From Ostreococcus lucimarinus (Eukaryota): 64,000 nucleotides of DNA. Under the pieces are notes generated by a model that had not been told where the DNA came from, did no database searches, and worked only from the letters and a program-made list of their open reading frames with translations. Made by a program: the position numbers and the translations under genes. The stretch is from assembly GCA_000092065.1 (NCBI GenBank), contig CP000600.1. One strand, given 5' to 3'. Below, piece after piece: positions 17,908-26,208 of this stretch; the stretch's first letter is position 1, and every line of letters begins with the position of its first letter.

Positions 17908-18030
17908 ATGCGCGCGAGCGGCGCGTCGTCGTCGCTCGAGCGCGGCGTCGTCGTCGATGGACGACGCGCGCGACCGCGCGACGCGCGCGCGACGGCGACG
18001 GCGAGGACGCGGATCGCGACGACGCGAATC

Positions 18031-18065
<35 letters not shown>

Positions 18066-19548
18066 ACGGACGAGGACGAGGACGCGCGCGACGGCGACGC
18101 GCGTCGATGAGAAAGACGTCGATGAGGACGACGAGGAGGACGACGCGTACTACACGTGGCGCGTGGGGGGGGCGAACGATTTGAAGATCACGCACCTGCG
18201 GGACGTGCATCGCGGCGACGCGCCGCCGCGAGCGAGGCCGAGCCCGTTCTGCACGAAGAGCTCGTGCCCGCTGAACGTCGGACCGAGAACGTCGCTGACG
18301 TTTAATAGTAACTTTGTGAGCAATAGTGATCGGATATTGCTGAACTCGGTGGCGTACGGGAGCGCGGCGGATCCGACGCAGACGTGCTCGTTGTCGAGCG
18401 ACGTGTACGACCCGAGCGGGTGCGATTACGTGCCGGAGTGGGTCGTCCGGGCGGGACCGAGGGCGGAGGTTTATTTCGATCCAGAGGAAGTGCACGCGGC
18501 GGTGGTGACGTGCGGAGGATTGTGCCCGGGAATCAATGACGTCATTCGATCGCTCGTGAACACCCTGGAGGTTGGCTACGGGGTGAAGAAGATTAGCGGC
18601 GTGCGATACGGATTTAAAGGGTTCTTCTCCGGCGACGAATTCATGCCGTTGAACAGGAAGGTGGTGAGAAACATTCACAACATCGGTGGGTCTGCGCTTG
18701 GATCCGGCAGAGGCGGTGGAGACGTGGAGAAAATCGTGGAATCTATCGTAAATAACGGAATCAACATGGTTTTCGTCATCGGCGGCAACGGCACGCACGC
18801 CGGGGCAAACGCGATAAGTAATGAATGCGCCAAGCGAGGGGTCAAGGTCTCCGTAGTGGGCGTCCCGAAGACGATAGATAACGATATCCTTCTTCTGGAT
18901 AAGACTTTTGGGTTCGACACCGCGGTCGAAGAGGCACAGAAAGCGATTCAAGCCGCGGCCATTGAGGCGCAGAGCGCCTATCGCGGCGTCGGCGTGGTGA
19001 AGCTCATGGGACGTCAGAGCGGATTTATAGCCATGTTCGCGACGCTGGCGAACGGACAAGTCGATTGCTGTTTGATTCCCGAGATTAGCTGGGCGGCACA
19101 CGGCCCGAATGGCGTGGTCGAGTACGTTCGAAACATGTTGGACGCTCAAGGTCACGCCGTCGTCGTCCTCGCCGAGGGCGCCGGCCAAGAGTTCGTCTCC
19201 GCCGGCGGCACCGACGCCGGCGGTAACCCCAAGCTCGGTGACATCGGTCAATGGTTTTGCAAGCAACTCAAAGCCGAGATCAAGTGCGACGTCAAGTACA
19301 TCGATCCCACGTACATGGTTCGCGGTTGCGTCGCCAACGCCCACGATTCCATCATGTGCACCGTCCTCGGCCAAAACGCCGTCCACGGCGCCTTCGCCGG
19401 TTTCACCGGCATCTCCGTCGGCTCCGTCAGCGCGCACACCGCGTTTTTACCGATCCCTCGCATGATCGAGCGCGAGCGTTTGGTCGATCCCGACGGTCGC
19501 ATGTGGCACCGCACCCTGGCCAGCACCGGGCAGCCAGACTTCTTCTGA
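17908..19548 (+). CDS. PFK: ATP-dependent 6-phosphofructokinase, plant/algal PFK type.
   Basis: GPRAEVYFDPEEVHAAVVTCGGLCPGINDVIR, IGGNGTHAGANAIS, PKTIDNDI and MGRQSGFIAM motifs. Long N-terminal extension with Thr/Arg repeats. Confidence 0.85.
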
Positions 19549-21984: not shown

Positions 21985-22511
21985 CGACGCCCGTCGGGCC
22001 TGCGCATCATCGAAACGAAACGCTCAAAGTCAGTCTCCCTCGCGGCGCGAATAGGTTTTATTTTATCTACGCCAGCCATCCACCGCGCGCGTCCCGCGGT
22101 CGTCTCCCGCGCCCCGCGCCCGATCTCGCGTTCGTTTCCGCGCGCGCGCGAGATTTAAAATTATCCCGCGCCCCGTCCTCGCGCCGCCGTCCTCGCCCGA
22201 TCCCGCGCGCGCGCGTCCCTCGTCCGTCGTCGTCGCGCGCGCGTCGCTAGGGTCGTCCCCGTCGTGACGTCGCGCCGCGTTCGCGGTCGCTCGCGTCGTC
22301 GTCGCGCACCTCTCGTCGCTGCGCGCGCGCGCCGGCGGTGGCGGTAAATCTCGTCGTCGTCGTCGTCGTCGTCGCGTGCATCGCGTCGATCGCGTCGCGC
22401 GTCGCGGTGTCCCAATCGCGTCGCCGCGCGCGACGCCCGGCGTCGCCGAGCGAGACCTTCCCGTGAACGCGCCACACGGATCTTTTGAGACCACGAGACG
22501 GCGACGTCCCG

Positions 22512-22549
<38 letters not shown>

Positions 22550-22586
22550 CGCGCAGACGACGACGCGCGCGCGGACGACGGGCGCG

Positions 22587-23519
22587 ATGTCCGCGCACGC
22601 GGTGACGGCGACGACCGCGAGCGATGGGACGTGCGCGACGACGGACGAGCCGAGCGAGTGCGCGTCGAGGAAGCGCGGACGCGGTGGCGCGACGGCGACG
22701 ACGACGAGCGAACGCGACTGCGGGACGAGGGACGGACCGGAGTCGAGCGCGGGACAGGGGACGACGCTGTATAAGCGACGACAGCGACAGGCGCGGAGAA
22801 GCGTGAATGGACGAGAGTTCGCGCGGCGATTGATTGATTTTCGAGGATTTGACTTGAGCGAGACGCAGGCGAACGACATCGCGCGGTTTATTGAATTGTT
22901 GCCGGAGGAGATGGAAGAACGCGTGCGTGAGACGCTGGAGAATTGTAGTGATATTGATGATGCGATCGGGAAGCTGGCGAGCGTGAAGATGGTGGAGCAG
23001 ACGGCGCAGTGCTCGGTGGGCGATTTCGTGAGCGAGGCGGCGATCTCCGAGGCGGCGAATAGCGCGGGAGGCGAGGGGAACGCGGGAGATGTTGGTGAAC
23101 GCGAAATGGGGACGGCCACGTCGAGCGCGCCCGTGTTGACGATGGAGTGGGTAAACGCGATCGTGAACGAGATGGGAGCCTCGGTGGACGTGTCGGATGC
23201 GCAGAATCGCGCTTCGCGAGTCTTGCAAACATTTGAGGGCGCCGTGAGACAGAGATGCGCGGAGTTTAACGATTATAGCAAAGTGATGAAGATGAAGCGA
23301 GAGAACGCTTTGTTGAAGCGTGCGGTGGCGATTCAGAACTCACGCATGCAAGACTTGGCGCCGCTTCAGGCCCGCGTGCGCGAACTCGAAGCCGCGTGCG
23401 CGCAGTACGACGACAGGCTCAAGACGGCGGAGAGACAAAATTACTCGCTCAGCGTCAACTTAAGGCTCGCTATGGCGGAACAGTCGCCGTTTGGTTCGAA
23501 AAACCACGATGTATTTTGA
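22587..23519 (+). CDS. Coiled-coil protein with an N-terminal CUE/UBA-like helical segment. Hypothetical.
   Basis: First ATG is at 22587; the ORF-track start at 22485 is non-ATG and lies in a (GGCGAC)n repeat. C-terminal heptad-rich region (...KMKRENALLKRAVAIQNSRMQDLAPLQARVRELEAACAQYDDRLKTAERQ...). Function is inferred only loosely. Confidence 0.45.
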   Translation: MSAHAVTATTASDGTCATTDEPSECASRKRGRGGATATTTSERDCGTRDGPESSAGQGTTLYKRRQRQARRSVNGREFARRLIDFRGFDLSETQANDIARFIELLPEEMEERVRETLENCSDIDDAIGKLASVKMVEQTAQCSVGDFVSEAAISEAANSAGGEGNAGDVGEREMGTATSSAPVLTMEWVNAIVNEMGASVDVSDAQNRASRVLQTFEGAVRQRCAEFNDYSKVMKMKRENALLKRAVAIQNSRMQDLAPLQARVRELEAACAQYDDRLKTAERQNYSLSVNLRLAMAEQSPFGSKNHDVF

Positions 23520-23606: not shown

Positions 23607-25334
23607 TTATACTTGCGACGTCGTCGCGTCGTCGTCGTCCTGGCGCCATCCCGGTGGACCTCTAAGGTATCGAAACGTGATATTGATTCGTTCTTTTCCG
23701 TTCGTCGGGACGCGATTCTTCGGCACCGCGTGATAATGAGTGTGCTGCAAGGAACCGTCCATCACCATCAGCGAGCCGTGCTCGAGAAAGATTGATGTCT
23801 TCTTCTTCGCTCGAGATTTCACCTGAACGTCAAACTTTCTCGTGTGACCGACGCTCACGGCCGCGATACACGCGTTTTTACCGAGTTCGGGTTCGTCATC
23901 GGCGTGAAACGCCATGGAATCGTCCCCATCGCGATAACGATTTAAAAGTATATGGTTGAACGTCGCGCCGCATTTCGCCTCAACCGCGGTCTGCAGGCGG
24001 CGCAACACCTCAGGCACGGGTACCGGATCGAGCGTCTGGCCACTATATTTGTACGGTAGATCGCCCGCCCACGACACGAGTCTCGGTTGGACGACTTCTT
24101 TCGTGACGCCTTTGTCGGGTTGCCAAACGACGATGGAGCGCTGCGCCCATGTCACGGGCGGCGACGACACGAGGCTAGACAACAGTTCGTTCGCCGCGTC
24201 TTCGTCGAGGAATTGACGACAAATGCCTAATCTCCCATCGGACTCCTCTGGGTCGACGACTTTGTACACTAACTCGGTCGGATTGTCGTCGAATCCTTCG
24301 AAACTGCTAACGATTTGCCGCTCGAGTTCCGCCTCGACGTTGCGTCGCTGTTCTTCCACGTTCACGCCGAAAAATTCGAGCAAAATCGCTTCCATCTCGT
24401 CGTAGTGCGCAACATCTTCCCGTAATCGTGAAACAGCGACGGCGTCGCCCGCGTCCGCGAGCCGCTCGAGTCGCGTCAAGTTTAGGCTCGACTGCCTGCG
24501 CACCTCGCGAACCCATTCCAGACGTTTTTTGACGTACAACTTGAGCAACGGCGACTCTTTCGGAGATTGTGCGCCCAAACACGGGCCTATGATTTCATCT
24601 CTCATCGTGAACGGTCGTTTCGTCGCAGCCGTCTCGTTCTCCGCGCACAGAATCAGATGCATCGTTCCGTTTTCCACGACGAGCCGCTCGTCGACGACGC
24701 GATAGTCGTTCGCGCGCAACCATCGACGCACTTGCGCGCCATCTTTCGCCGGCGGATTCAACACTACGCGCTTTAAACTTCCGCGTCGGTTTCCCGACCC
24801 CCCACACCCGCCCTCCTCGAGCACGCGCGCCATGGTATTCGCCCCCACGCCCGCGACGACCAAGACGTCGACGCGCTCGTCGTCCCGCAGCGCCGACAAC
24901 CCGTCGCCCAGTCTCAAATCCACCGTATCCACCGCCGCGCCATCACCGCCGACCATCTCCACTTCTTTTTTCGCCCTCGCCACGTTCTTTTTCGCGCGTT
25001 CAATCTCCGCCTCGCTTCGATCGATCGCGACGACTCGCGTCGCGTTCGCCTCGGACGCGCAGCCGAGCGCCAGCAGCGCGTGTCCGCAGCAGCAATCCAC
25101 CACGACGCCCTCCCCGTCGCCGTCTTCGATCGCGCTCATCGCTCGCAGCGCTTGCAACCGAGACGACCACGCCCACGACGCCGCGCGCGGGACGTCGTCG
25201 CGGTCGAGCGCGGGCGCGTCCGGGGCGTCGCGCGCTCTGAACCGCGCGCGCGCGTCCCCGCGGCGGCGACGTCCCGCCGCGCGACGAGGCGTCGACGTCG
25301 ACGTCGCGCTCGACGCGCGCGCGCTCGACCGCAT
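23607..25334 (-). CDS. Fusion protein: N-terminal TrmK-like tRNA (adenine-N1)-methyltransferase domain plus a C-terminal AlkB-family Fe(II)/2-oxoglutarate dioxygenase domain.
   Basis: N-terminal half is collinear with bacterial TrmK (LQALRAMSAIEDG..VVVDCCCGHALLALGC; VDLRLGDGLSALRDDERVDVLVVAGVGANTMARVLEEG; RVVLNPP). C-terminal half carries AlkB motifs: FNHILLNRYRDGDDSMAFHADDEPELG, the H-x-D iron ligands, HGSLMVMDGSLQHTHYHAVP, and RINITFR. Start taken at the ATG at 25334, in frame with the TrmK N-terminal LSKRLQ-equivalent. The long low-complexity extension of the ORF track beyond 25334 was rejected as antisense to MAD2. Confidence 0.75.
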   Translation of the reverse strand: MRSSARASSATSTSTPRRAAGRRRRGDARARFRARDAPDAPALDRDDVPRAASWAWSSRLQALRAMSAIEDGDGEGVVVDCCCGHALLALGCASEANATRVVAIDRSEAEIERAKKNVARAKKEVEMVGGDGAAVDTVDLRLGDGLSALRDDERVDVLVVAGVGANTMARVLEEGGCGGSGNRRGSLKRVVLNPPAKDGAQVRRWLRANDYRVVDERLVVENGTMHLILCAENETAATKRPFTMRDEIIGPCLGAQSPKESPLLKLYVKKRLEWVREVRRQSSLNLTRLERLADAGDAVAVSRLREDVAHYDEMEAILLEFFGVNVEEQRRNVEAELERQIVSSFEGFDDNPTELVYKVVDPEESDGRLGICRQFLDEDAANELLSSLVSSPPVTWAQRSIVVWQPDKGVTKEVVQPRLVSWAGDLPYKYSGQTLDPVPVPEVLRRLQTAVEAKCGATFNHILLNRYRDGDDSMAFHADDEPELGKNACIAAVSVGHTRKFDVQVKSRAKKKTSIFLEHGSLMVMDGSLQHTHYHAVPKNRVPTNGKERINITFRYLRGPPGWRQDDDDATTSQV

Positions 25335-25524
25335 GGTCGACGCCGCGACGCGCCGGCGCCCGCGAGCGCGCGACGTCGGCGTGTGCGCGGCGTCGCGAGG
25401 GCGACGGACGCTCGCGCTCGACCTCGACGTCCAGGCGCCGACGTCGAGCGCGGGATCGGTTTGAATCGAAACCGCAGTGAAACGCGCGCTCGAGCGCGCC
25501 GACGCCGCGACGCTCGAACGCGAC

Positions 25525-25893
25525 ATGGCGCAAGAGCAACGGCGCGGCGCGACGTCGAGCGCGATCACGCTCCGAGGGTCGACCGAGCTCGTGACGGAGT
25601 TTTTCGGGTACGCGGTGAACACCATCTTGTACCAGCGCGGGGTGTACCCGGCGGAGGAGTTTGAACGAAAGAAAAAGTACGGACTCGGGGTGATGGTGAC
25701 GAACGAACCGAAATTAAAGGAATACTTGGTCGCCGCGCTCGAACGCGTGAACGCGTGGTTGATGGAGAAGGATTTGAAAAAGTTGGTGCTGGTGCTCGCG
25801 GACGCGAAGACTGGGGAGACGCTGGAGCGCTGGACGTTCGACGTGGAGACGGATGCGGAGATCGTGGATGAGAACGGTGGTGATGCGAACGGA

Positions 25894-25943
<50 letters not shown>

Positions 25944-26208
25944 GGAGAAGCCGGAGAAGGAAATTATGCAAGAGATACAAGCCATCATTCGGCAAATCAC
26001 GGCTTCGGTGACGTTTTTGCCTCTGCTCGATCGCGAGTGCGCGTTCGAACTCTTGGCGTACACGGACGCGGCGAGCGCGACGCCGGAGGAGTGCGAAGAG
26101 AGCGATCCGAAGTATGTTCGAGACGGCGTCGAGATGCGGTTGCGTTCGTTTAGCACGAAGATCCATACCGTCGACGCGGGGGTGTCGTACAAGACGGAGG
26201 ACGACTGA
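25525..26208 (+). CDS. MAD2: Mitotic spindle assembly checkpoint protein MAD2 (HORMA domain), with a 16-residue poly-Thr insertion.
   Basis: ITLRGSTELVTEFFGYAVNTILYQRGVYPAEEFERKKKYGL...LERWTFDVE...IRQITASVTFLPLL...EVRLRSFSTKIHTVDAGVSYK is collinear with MAD2 over its whole length. An (ACG)16 array at 25894..25941 encodes the poly-Thr. Confidence 0.9.

What the first reader, a model, noticed from the sequence alone, without database searches (positions are those of the whole stretch)
23607..25334. Single ORF fusing a bacterial-type TrmK tRNA m1A methyltransferase to an AlkB-family dioxygenase
The N-terminal ~260 aa are collinear with TrmK, a SAM-dependent enzyme that makes m1A22 in bacterial tRNA and is not a typical eukaryotic protein. 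The C-terminal ~200 aa carry every hallmark of an AlkB/ALKBH2-3-type Fe(II)/2OG dioxygenase (HxD...H iron ligands, RxxxR 2OG binding), an enzyme class that oxidatively removes m1A/m3C. A methyl-writer and a candidate methyl-eraser for the same modification in one polypeptide is an unusual architecture. It could be a self-correcting or regulated tRNA m1A system, or the AlkB domain may repair off-target methylation caused by the TrmK domain. The gene is head-to-head with MAD2, 190 bp away.
Basis: partly seen in the sequence, partly recalled or inferred. Interest (0 to 1): 0.8.

Follow-up and report, generated by a model that had tools for sequence, protein, structure and literature searches.

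The report
TrmK methyltransferase fused to AlkB demethylase
A tiny marine green alga (Ostreococcus) encodes one conserved protein that joins a bacterial-type enzyme that puts a methyl group on tRNA adenine to an enzyme of the class that strips such methyl groups off, an arrangement found nowhere else and not described in the papers searched, though its function is untested.

Summary
Window 23607-25334 (-) is an uninterrupted 575-codon ORF. Residues 79-282 match Pfam TrmK (E 6e-25) and residues 370-555 match 2OG-FeII_Oxy_2/AlkB (E 7e-32). An AlphaFold model is confident (pLDDT 90.6, pTM 0.79). Its halves superpose on every solved TrmK structure and on human ALKBH3/ALKBH2. The SAM-binding residues, iron ligands, 2OG arginines and base-contacting residues are invariant in ten orthologues, and both halves are under purifying selection.

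The fusion is confined to one syntenic Ostreococcus-type lineage, including O. tauri RefSeq XP_003083012.2, which is named only "AlkB-like". Micromonas carries the TrmK-like gene unfused at another locus. Among 1.84 billion protein representatives, no other protein matches both halves.

Reviews state that TrmK has no eukaryotic equivalent, so these algal homologues are themselves unreported. No paper describing the fusion was found. ALKBH8 is the only comparable AlkB-methyltransferase fusion, and its chemistry differs.

Function is inferred only. My preferred reading is a probably organelle-targeted tRNA enzyme whose TrmK module docks tRNA and writes m1A, while the tethered AlkB module removes misplaced m1A/m3C. 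A true writer-eraser switch and an incidental fusion in a compact genome both remain open.

Verdict: new variant of a known kind; interest 0.6.

The parts
23607..25334 (-). Complete CDS of the TrmK-AlkB fusion protein (575 aa plus stop at 23607-23609)
   Evidence: Uninterrupted ORF. Collinear full-length orthologues at 56-99% identity. O. tauri RefSeq XP_003083012.2 spans both domains in one CDS.
25248..25334 (-). aa 1-29: Arg/Ser/Ala-rich, disordered N-terminal extension; putative organelle-targeting presequence (inferred)
   Evidence: AF2 pLDDT below 50 for residues 1-29. Orthologues keep open but unalignable extensions of 30-60 aa. dN/dS is about 0.6-1.0. The composition is partly a by-product of high GC, so targeting is inference only.
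25164..25247 (-). aa 30-57: conserved N-terminal element (R-F-[RK]-V-x-G-x-x-D-x-P ... W-S-x-R) that precedes the start of bacterial TrmK
   Evidence: F32, D39, P41, W56 and S57 are nearly invariant in the fusions and shared with the stand-alone Micromonas homologues. Structured in AF2, pLDDT 83-95. Function unknown.
24570..25163 (-). aa 58-255: TrmK-type class I SAM-dependent methyltransferase core
   Evidence: Pfam TrmK E 6e-25. Profile alignment to B. subtilis TrmK 6q56. Foldseek TM 0.73-0.80 to all TrmK structures. R59, D80, D105 and D144 are conserved.
25080..25097 (-). SAM motif I, D80-C-C-C-G84-H85 (bacterial TrmK has D-I-G-S-D-H)
   Evidence: Read directly from the sequence. Aligned to BsTrmK D25-H30. 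D80, C82, G84 and H85 are nearly invariant. BsTrmK D29 corresponds to G84.
24300..24569 (-). aa 256-345: three long helices (262-292, 295-321, 326-344). This is the TrmK C-terminal coiled-coil (tRNA-binding) domain, extended by one helix, plus a short conserved G347-F348 linker.
   Evidence: AF2 secondary structure. Aligns with the BsTrmK C-terminal domain. dN/dS is about 0.15. G347 and F348 are invariant.
23655..24299 (-). aa 346-560: AlkB-family Fe(II)/2-oxoglutarate dioxygenase domain, ALKBH2/3 and bacterial group-1B type
   Evidence: Pfam PF13532 E 7e-32. ALKBH3 E 8e-30. Foldseek to ALKBH3: TM 0.83-0.89, rmsd 1.8-2.5 A. About 50% identity to stand-alone bacterial AlkBs of about 210 aa that share the GPPGWR tail. 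dN/dS is about 0.1.
23898..23906 (-). H477-A478-D479, the first two iron ligands; D480 follows (equivalent to E. coli AlkB D135 and ALKBH3 D194)
   Evidence: Codons cac-gcc-gat read. Invariant in 10 orthologues. Aligned to the ALKBH3 motif HSDDE.
23730..23732 (-). H535, the third iron ligand
   Evidence: Aligned to the His of the ALKBH3 motif 'QHRVPK'. Invariant.
23670..23690 (-). R549-I-N-I-T-F-R555, the 2-oxoglutarate-binding RxNxTxR motif
   Evidence: Aligned to the ALKBH3 motif 'RVNLTFR'. Invariant.
25335..25524 (.). 190-bp divergent intergenic region shared with MAD2
   Evidence: Coordinates. The head-to-head HORMA-fusion arrangement is conserved in all fusion loci examined.
25525..26208 (+). 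MAD2 (HORMA-domain) gene; a neighbour, not part of the system
   Evidence: Pfam HORMA E 5.5e-32.

Best explanation
This is a nuclear gene of an Ostreococcus lucimarinus-like alga. It encodes a single, rigidly built, bifunctional nucleic-acid methylation enzyme that is probably imported into an organelle.

The N-terminal module is a TrmK-type SAM-dependent methyltransferase with its tRNA-binding coiled coil. It is expected to dock L-shaped, bacterial-type tRNA and methylate N1 of an adenine; position 22 is the only activity known for this family. A linker of about 10 residues joins it to an ALKBH3/ALKBH2-like (bacterial group-1B-like) Fe(II)/2-oxoglutarate dioxygenase. That class hydroxylates N-methyl groups on the Watson-Crick face (m1A, m3C), which then leave as formaldehyde.

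My preferred mechanism is tRNA-tethered proofreading or repair. The TrmK module supplies tRNA binding and writes the intended mark. The AlkB module removes misplaced or chemically induced m1A/m3C on the same tRNAs. It would not undo the intended mark in a futile cycle.

Shown here: both folds, all cofactor and catalytic residues, conservation, purifying selection, and lineage restriction. Inferred: the substrate (tRNA, position 22), organelle targeting, and the functional coupling of the two modules.
For: Domain identity:
- Both domains score far above curated thresholds and match solved structures by sequence and by fold.

Catalytic residues:
- The residues matching BsTrmK's SAM-contacting R9 and D78, whose alanine mutants are inactive or nearly so (PMC6511850), are kept as R59 and D144. 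D25 and E50 are kept as D80 and D105.
- The AlkB residues H477, D479, H535, R549, R555, D480, Y430 and N465 are invariant in 10 orthologues.

Integration of the two halves:
- AF2 gives pLDDT 90.6 and pTM 0.79 for the whole chain. The inter-domain linker is short and conserved, which suggests a fixed arrangement.
- No fission was seen in at least 8 lineages that have diverged to 56% identity, all in the same synteny.
- dN/dS is 0.32 for the methyltransferase core, 0.15 for the coiled coil and 0.10 for AlkB.

Chemical plausibility:
- AlkB-type demethylases remove m1A22 from B. subtilis tRNA almost completely in vitro (PMC6297222).
- ALKBH3 is a tRNA m1A/m3C demethylase (PMC6411830).
- AlkB and ALKBH3 repair of tRNA restores its function (cited in PMC2790896).

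Targeting and origin:
- The N-terminal 29 aa are disordered, basic, hydroxylated and weakly constrained.
- Both halves have bacterial nearest relatives. This fits an organelle-directed protein acting on bacterial-type tRNAs.
Against: - There are no activity, localisation or transcript data.
- The conserved Asp of bacterial TrmK (BsTrmK D29) is Gly, and M96 is Val, in all algal homologues. Target specificity may therefore differ from m1A22.
- The methyltransferase core evolves about three times faster than the AlkB domain.
- The R/S/A-rich N-terminus is also what a 60% GC sequence yields in many frames, so the targeting inference is weak.
- Ostreococcus genomes are known for gene fusions linked to compaction (PMC2850359), so coupling need not be functional.
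- The nearest AlkB relatives belong to a group characterised as DNA repair enzymes (PMC2790896).
Confidence: 0.4

Rival explanations
1. A true writer-eraser switch. Both domains act on the same adenine (m1A22 or equivalent) of the same tRNAs. The steady-state methylation level is set by the balance between SAM and Fe(II)/2-oxoglutarate/O2, making the protein a metabolic, iron or oxygen sensor for organellar translation.
For: The product class of TrmK (m1A) is exactly the preferred substrate class of ALKBH3 and AlkB (PMC6411830). AlkB-type enzymes erase m1A22 in tRNA in vitro (PMC6297222). D480, the residue that contacts the exocyclic amine of m1A/m3C in AlkB and ALKBH3, is invariant. Both active sites are intact and under selection.
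Against: Constitutive co-expression at 1:1 in one chain would burn SAM and 2OG in a futile cycle unless it is gated, and no regulatory domain is detectable. A rigid two-domain body (pTM 0.79) cannot present one nucleotide to both sites at once. Micromonas does without the fused eraser.
Confidence: 0.2
2. An incidental (Rosetta-stone) fusion. Two independently acting bacterial-type enzymes, a tRNA methyltransferase and a general alkylation-repair dioxygenase for organellar DNA or RNA, were joined during genome compaction because they work in the same compartment. There is no mechanistic coupling.
For: [quoted passage not shown] The AlkB half is about 50% identical to ordinary stand-alone bacterial AlkBs. 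Group 1B and ALKBH2/3 proteins are repair enzymes (PMC2790896). Micromonas keeps the TrmK-like gene alone at another locus.
Against: The fusion has been retained without fission through divergence to 56% identity. The linker and third helix are conserved, with G347 and F348 invariant and dN/dS about 0.15. The model predicts a confident fixed arrangement. The fusion clade has a 6-residue insertion in the AlkB beta-hairpin relative to its bacterial relatives (VVWQPDKGVTKEVVQPRL against VVFGREVMQPRL), which suggests adaptation after fusion.
Confidence: 0.25
3. Repurposed chemistry, in one of two forms. (a) The pair acts sequentially, as in ALKBH8 (methylate, then hydroxylate), to build a new oxidised modification. 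(b) The TrmK module has lost or changed its methylation target and serves mainly as a tRNA-binding adaptor that delivers the AlkB domain.
For: ALKBH8 is a precedent for an AlkB domain that hydroxylates the product of its fused tRNA methyltransferase (PMC3177185). The TrmK motif I is altered in the algal clade (D29 to G, DIGSDH to DCCCGH). The methyltransferase core is the fastest-evolving folded part.
Against: Hydroxylation of an N1-methyl group gives an unstable hemiaminal, which amounts to demethylation rather than a stable product (established AlkB chemistry). The AlkB domain is ALKBH2/3-like, not ALKBH8-like. The SAM-binding residues R59, D80, D105 and D144 remain invariant, which argues against a catalytically dead adaptor.
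Confidence: 0.12
4. An artefact: a mis-assembly, or a wrong gene model that joins two genes.
For: No direct transcript evidence was available here. One 94%-identical metagenome contig (L024) has a frameshift in the N-terminal third.
Against: The same continuous ORF occurs in dozens of independent assemblies and in the O. tauri reference genome. No stop or frameshift lies at the junction in any lineage. The junction is structured and conserved.
Confidence: 0.03

Closest known systems
Bacterial TrmK (B. subtilis YqfN, S. aureus TrmK; COG2384 / PF04816), the tRNA m1A22 methyltransferase
   Same: Class I methyltransferase core plus a C-terminal coiled coil. Pfam hit well above threshold. Foldseek TM 0.73-0.80 to all solved TrmKs. 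The residues matching SAM-contacting R9 and D78, and D25 and E50, are conserved (PMC6511850).
   Different: Only about 25-33% identity. Eukaryotic and nuclear-encoded. An extra conserved 28-aa N-terminal element and a presequence. D29 is Gly and M96 is Val. A third helix has been added. Fused to AlkB. Reviews state TrmK has no eukaryotic equivalent (PMC10882958).
Human ALKBH3 (and ALKBH2); bacterial group 1B AlkB
   Same: Best PDB matches by sequence (E 8e-30) and by fold (TM up to 0.89, 35-36% identity). HxD...H, RxNxTxR, and the equivalents of D194, Y143 and N179 are conserved. About 50% identity to stand-alone bacterial AlkBs that share the C-terminal GPPGWR motif.
   Different: It is a C-terminal domain of a larger protein. 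It has a lineage-specific 6-residue insertion in the beta-hairpin of the nucleotide-recognition lid. Its substrate is unknown. It is not an E. coli AlkB (group 1A) orthologue: NCBIfam equivalog score 38 against a cut-off of 267.
ALKBH8 (RRM-AlkB-Trm9-like methyltransferase)
   Same: The only well-studied natural fusion of an AlkB-family dioxygenase with a SAM-dependent tRNA methyltransferase. Both of its domains act on the same tRNA nucleotide (PMC3177185).
   Different: Different methyltransferase family (Trm9, not TrmK). Opposite domain order. ALKBH8 has an RRM. Its AlkB domain hydroxylates a side-chain carbon of mcm5U to give a stable product. Here the AlkB domain is of the demethylase (ALKBH2/3) type, and the methyltransferase product would be a direct AlkB substrate.
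AlkB domains inside plant-virus replicase polyproteins (Flexiviridae)
   Same: An AlkB repair domain embedded in a multidomain protein that also carries a methyltransferase domain. These domains repair m1A/m3C in RNA (PMC2553587, PMC544882). This is a precedent for an RNA-directed, tethered AlkB.
   Different: The viral methyltransferase is a cap guanylyl/methyltransferase unrelated to TrmK. The context is an RNA genome, not tRNA.
Stand-alone TrmK-like proteins of Micromonas (e.g. M. pusilla XP_003063619.1)
   Same: Sister clade of the fusion's TrmK half (NJ bootstrap 100/100). They share the N-terminal element, the D-x-[GC]-C-G-H motif and an N-terminal extension.
   Different: No AlkB domain. 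A different conserved locus (Peptidase_C1-Ank-...-SET-DEAD). A longer, divergent C-terminus, which in M. pusilla includes a DUF7067 motif.

Membership tests
TrmK (PF04816 / COG2384) | Profile-HMM match above the curated threshold | tested here: met
   PF04816 at 88.4 bits against a cut-off of 27, aa 79-282. A profile of the algal homologues hits 3kr9, 6q56 and 7o4m at E 3e-20 to 2e-12. NCBIfam returned no TrmK-specific model.
TrmK (PF04816 / COG2384) | [quoted passage not shown] | tested here: met
   AF2 model with pLDDT above 90 and helices 262-344. Foldseek TM 0.73-0.80 over about 260 columns to all six TrmK structures.
TrmK (PF04816 / COG2384) | SAM-contacting residues R9, D78 and M96 of BsTrmK (alanine mutants inactive or nearly so; PMC6511850) | tested here: inconclusive
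   R59 and D144 are conserved. M96 is replaced by V163 (Ile in one homologue).
TrmK (PF04816 / COG2384) | Conserved Asp in motif DxGxDHAYL (BsTrmK D29) | tested here: not met
   G84 in all fusion and stand-alone algal homologues. D29A only reduces BsTrmK activity (PMC6511850), so this does not predict inactivity.
TrmK (PF04816 / COG2384) | Forms m1A at position 22 of tRNAs that have a purine at position 13 | not testable with these tools
   This needs an enzyme assay or tRNA sequencing. No organellar tRNA sequences were available, and the window holds no tRNA genes.
AlkB family, ALKBH2/3 / bacterial group 1B type (PF13532) | Profile-HMM match above threshold and a double-stranded beta-helix fold | tested here: met
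   PF13532 at 111.6 bits against a cut-off of 31.2. Foldseek to ALKBH3: TM 0.83-0.89, rmsd 1.8-2.5 A.
AlkB family, ALKBH2/3 / bacterial group 1B type (PF13532) | Fe(II) triad HxD...H and 2OG-binding RxNxTxR | tested here: met
   H477, D479, H535, R549 and R555 are invariant in 10 orthologues.
AlkB family, ALKBH2/3 / bacterial group 1B type (PF13532) | Base-recognition residues for m1A/m3C (ALKBH3 D194 = AlkB D135; ALKBH3 Y143) | tested here: met
   D480 and Y430 align to these residues and are invariant.
AlkB family, ALKBH2/3 / bacterial group 1B type (PF13532) | Oxidative demethylation of m1A/m3C in DNA or RNA | not testable with these tools
   This requires biochemistry.
E. coli AlkB orthologue (NCBIfam NF011930 / TIGR00568) | Equivalog score above the cut-off | tested here: not met
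   38.4 bits against 267, and 31.2 against 231. E. coli AlkB structures match only at E about 7e-3.
ALKBH8-type AlkB-methyltransferase fusion | RRM + ALKBH8-type AlkB + C-terminal Trm9-like methyltransferase | tested here: not met
   No RRM or Trm9-type hit. The methyltransferase is N-terminal and of TrmK type. The AlkB half is closest to ALKBH3/2. This is an analogy only.

The most novel reading that the evidence does not exclude
One polypeptide both writes and erases m1A on the same organellar tRNAs. The erasing half is gated by Fe(II), 2-oxoglutarate and O2. tRNA methylation, and hence organellar translation, would then report the iron, carbon and oxygen status of an iron-limited marine alga. 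This would be the first natural single-chain writer-eraser switch for an RNA mark.
Probability: 0.15. Interest if true: 0.9.

Novelty: new variant of a known kind. Interest (0 to 1): 0.6.

Why it matters
Whether m1A in tRNA is a regulated, reversible mark or mostly static remains debated. The known writers and erasers are separate proteins.

A natural covalent union of a TrmK-type m1A writer with an ALKBH3-type m1A/m3C eraser would give a direct handle on how cells keep Watson-Crick-face methylation accurate. It has been kept under selection in a genetically tractable picoalga, and a sister genus (Micromonas) lacks the fusion and so offers a built-in comparison.

The finding also corrects the literature statement that TrmK has no eukaryotic equivalent. 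In addition, the O. tauri reference protein is named only after its AlkB half, and its annotated start lies downstream of the residue matching an Arg (BsTrmK R9) whose mutation inactivates the bacterial enzyme.

If the fusion proves incidental, it remains a minor example of gene fusion during genome compaction.

Tried and rejected
- The Foldseek afdb50 library, which would have named organisms sharing the architecture, was not installed.
- Species names for most fusion clusters could not be obtained. Only O. tauri (P0005 cluster) and an O. lucimarinus-like origin for the window were established. Whether Bathycoccus or Mantoniella carry the fusion is therefore unknown. No locus had Bathycoccus-like GC (by my recollection about 48%).
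- The exact MAD2 protein (ATG at 25525) is not in the protein collection.
- The metagenome scan built its patterns from the TrmK half only. It therefore could not reveal a stand-alone Micromonas orthologue of the AlkB half, or what lies next to MAD2 in Micromonas.
- The supplement of the Micromonas tRNA-epitranscriptome paper (PMC10735309) is not held, and its main text mentions neither m1A nor TrmK.
- Literature searches for TrmK+AlkB, AlkB+fusion+Ostreococcus, TrmK+chloroplast and ALKBH+Ostreococcus found no description of this protein.
- Logan contigs of about 3.4 kb carrying the exact protein also include parts of both neighbouring genes. They cannot be taken as transcript evidence.
- The idea that viral AlkB counteracts the adjacent viral methyltransferase was checked in PMC544882 and is not what that paper argues. 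I therefore use the viral case only as a precedent for tethered RNA repair.
- Model coordinates are not exposed, so the distance between the active sites could not be measured.
Full report
**1. The observation**

Window 23607-25334 on the minus strand is an uninterrupted reading frame of 575 codons plus a stop. Two Pfam domains score far above their curated thresholds:
- TrmK (PF04816): residues 79-282, E 6.1e-25, 88 bits against a cut-off of 27.
- 2OG-FeII_Oxy_2 (PF13532, the AlkB-type family): residues 370-555, E 7.1e-32, 112 bits against a cut-off of 31.

Against PDB sequences, the C-terminal half is closest to human ALKBH3 (E 8e-30). ALKBH2 follows (E 3e-20), and E. coli AlkB matches only weakly (E 7e-3). 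The N-terminal half hits the TrmK structures 3kr9, 3gnl, 7o4m and 6q56. Using a profile of the algal homologues, those E-values improve to 3e-20 through 2e-12.

The divergent neighbour is MAD2 (HORMA domain, E 5.5e-32). An in-frame ATG at 25526 would extend the protein to 639 aa and overlap the MAD2 start. The start at 25334 is therefore preferred but not proven.

**2. Anatomy**

An AlphaFold2 model was built from a 105-sequence alignment (fusions, stand-alone TrmK-like proteins and stand-alone AlkBs). It has mean pLDDT 90.6 and pTM 0.79. Its parts are:
- Residues 1-29: disordered.
- Residues 30-57: structured, with no counterpart at the start of bacterial TrmK.
- Residues 58-233: Rossmann-type methyltransferase core.
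- Three long helices (262-292, 295-321, 326-344): the TrmK coiled coil plus one extra helix.
- A linker of about 10 residues containing the invariant G347-F348.
- Residues 356-555: a double-stranded beta-helix.

Foldseek against the PDB returns human ALKBH3 (TM up to 0.89, rmsd 1.8 A, 35-36% identity) and ALKBH2 for the C-terminal half. It returns every solved TrmK (TM 0.73-0.80 over about 260 columns) for the N-terminal half.

**3. Catalytic residues**

The profile alignment to B. subtilis TrmK can be read against the mutagenesis in PMC6511850:

| BsTrmK residue | Window residue | Note |
|---|---|---|
| R9 | R59 | R9A is inactive |
| D25 | D80 | conserved |
| E50 | D105 | conserved acidic |
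| D78 | D144 | D78A is nearly inactive |
| M96 | V163 | M96A is nearly inactive; substitution here |
| D29 | G84 | D29A only reduces activity |

D29 is the one Asp conserved across COG2384. It is Gly in every algal homologue, whose motif is D-x-C-C-G-H-A-L-L.

In the AlkB half, the following are invariant in ten orthologues:
- H477, D479 and H535, the iron ligands.
- R549 and R555, in the 2OG-binding motif RxNxTxR.
- D480, equivalent to AlkB D135 and ALKBH3 D194.
- Y430, equivalent to ALKBH3 Y143.
- N465.

Compared with its closest bacterial relatives (VVFGREVMQPRL), the fusion clade carries a 6-residue insertion in the beta-hairpin of the recognition lid (VVWQPDKGVTKEVVQPRL).

**4. Distribution**

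The window is Ostreococcus lucimarinus-like. Its phosphofructokinase falls in a 90%-identity cluster with O. lucimarinus XP_001422557.

Word-indexed searches, a metagenome scan and an exhaustive phmmer search all gave the same picture.
- Ten clusters of full-length, collinear orthologues were found at 56-99% identity.
- In the phmmer search of 1.84 billion 50%-identity representatives, only one representative matches both halves. All other hits match one half only. A bacterial fusion at ordinary divergence would have ranked near the top, and none did.
- One cluster contains O. tauri RefSeq XP_003083012.2 (UniRef A0A096PAT5). It is named only "Alpha-ketoglutarate-dependent dioxygenase AlkB-like". 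It spans both domains, but its start lies downstream of the R59 equivalent.
- JGI's automatic names for metagenome fragments read "tRNA A22 N-methylase/alkylated DNA repair dioxygenase AlkB".
- All fusion loci share the synteny GltS - MAD2 <-> fusion - unknown - L31 - LysRS - PFK, at 55-62% GC.

**5. Relatives of each half**

TrmK-like proteins without an AlkB domain occur in Micromonas. Examples are M. pusilla XP_003063619.1 and further clusters on contigs of 64% and 68-70% GC. They always lie in a different conserved block: Peptidase_C1 - Ank - ... - TrmK-like - SET - DEAD helicase.
- They share the N-terminal element and the altered motif I.
- In a neighbour-joining tree of the TrmK halves, the fusion clade and the stand-alone clade are each monophyletic (100/100 bootstraps). 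Together they are separated from bacterial TrmKs.
- This fits one acquisition of a bacterial TrmK in the Mamiellales ancestor, followed by relocation and fusion on the Ostreococcus branch. An old duplication with reciprocal loss is not excluded.
- Bacterial TrmKs are the next hits, at only 25-33% identity.

The AlkB half is about 50% identical to stand-alone bacterial AlkBs of about 210 aa (Myxococcota and delta/alphaproteobacterial MAGs). These share its C-terminal GPPGWR motif. This corresponds to the ALKBH2/3-like "group 1B" of van den Born et al. (PMC2790896).

**6. Selection**

Nei-Gojobori dN/dS was computed between the window and a 95%-identical orthologue:

| Region | dN/dS |
|---|---|
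| Presequence (aa 1-35) | 0.60 |
| Methyltransferase core | 0.32 |
| Coiled coil and linker | 0.15 |
| AlkB domain | 0.10 |

More distant pairs give the same ranking. Both halves and the connector are therefore maintained by selection. The AlkB half is the most constrained and the methyltransferase core the least.

**7. How it most likely works**

Shown here:
- Two intact catalytic modules in one conserved, apparently rigid chain.
- A tRNA-binding coiled coil between them.
- A weakly constrained, disordered, basic N-terminus.
- Bacterial affinities of both halves.

From the literature:
- TrmK methylates N1 of A22 in L-shaped tRNAs with a purine at position 13. It needs its coiled coil to do so (PMC6511850, PMC10882958).
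- ALKBH3 demethylates m1A and m3C in tRNA (PMC6411830).
- AlkB-type demethylases remove m1A22 from B. subtilis tRNA almost completely in vitro (PMC6297222).

Inference, with a probability of about 0.4: the protein is imported into the plastid or mitochondrion. It binds bacterial-type tRNAs through the TrmK module and writes m1A. The tethered AlkB domain clears misplaced or chemically induced m1A/m3C on the same tRNAs.

The rivals, with my estimates:
- A genuine writer-eraser switch on one site, gated by Fe/2OG/O2 (0.2).
- An incidental fusion of two independent activities, in a genome noted for gene fusions (PMC2850359) (0.25).
- Repurposed chemistry, either ALKBH8-like sequential modification or a non-catalytic TrmK adaptor (0.12).
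- An artefact (0.03).

None of these can be separated without experiments.

**8. Comparison with known systems and novelty**

The closest precedent for an AlkB-methyltransferase fusion is ALKBH8 (PMC3177185). ALKBH8 has a different methyltransferase family, the opposite domain order and an RRM. Its oxygenase makes a stable hydroxylated product. This protein fails the ALKBH8 membership test and is only an analogue.

Viral replicase AlkB domains are a precedent for tethered RNA repair (PMC2553587).

Each half is a member, or divergent member, of a known family. The combination is new and restricted to one lineage. Reviews state that TrmK has no eukaryotic equivalent (PMC10882958, PMC6511850). 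No paper describing the fusion was found in six literature searches (the Bioessays paper found was read). Public databases hold the protein only under automatic names.

I classify it as a new variant of a known kind, with interest 0.6. It is a clean, conserved and experimentally tractable oddity whose significance depends on untested function.

Noticed in passing
L009:6001-7371 (P0016/P0207, Micromonas pusilla XP_003063619.1): The stand-alone TrmK-like protein of M. pusilla carries a Pfam DUF7067 motif (described for alpha-glucan water dikinase; E 2.6e-16) at aa 345-396 in its C-terminal extension. P0365, the one other stand-alone homologue scanned in the same call, has no DUF7067 hit, and precomputed Pfam lists for the other stand-alone homologues do not show it.
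   Followed up: partly
L024:7781-9462: A metagenome contig whose orthologue is 94% identical has a frameshift in the N-terminal third. The longest ORF covers only 1290 of the 1682 matched bases. This could be an assembly error or a pseudogenised allele.
   Followed up: no
O. tauri XP_003083012.2 (P0296), compared with window residues 1-70: The RefSeq model starts at 'MAPLGGRERG...'. This is downstream of the conserved W-S-S-R element that contains the equivalent of BsTrmK R9, whose R9A mutant is inactive. The annotated start is probably too far 3', and the product name ignores the TrmK half.
   Followed up: partly
window 25164-25247 (aa 30-57) and homologues: A conserved N-terminal element (R-F-[RK]-V-x-G-x-x-D-x-P ... 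W-S-x-R) is shared by fused and unfused algal TrmK-like proteins. It has no counterpart at the start of bacterial TrmK, is structured in the AF2 model, and its role is unknown.
   Followed up: partly
window 22485-23519 (+): The convergent downstream neighbour is an ORF of about 310-344 aa with no Pfam hit. A gene of similar size and orientation, also without a Pfam hit, occupies the same position in most fusion loci examined (two shorter genes in L015/L016). It begins with a long Arg/Thr/Ala-rich low-complexity region.
   Followed up: no
window ~25930-25985 (+), inside MAD2: The MAD2/HORMA protein contains a run of about 15 consecutive threonines (NGTTTTTTTTTTTTTTTREK) inserted in the domain. 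The opposite strand reads as poly-Val in the mechanical ORF.
   Followed up: no
window 17908-19548 (+): The phosphofructokinase ORF is 546 aa here and in several metagenome copies. The O. lucimarinus RefSeq protein in the same 90% cluster is 416 aa, which suggests a truncated reference gene model.
   Followed up: no
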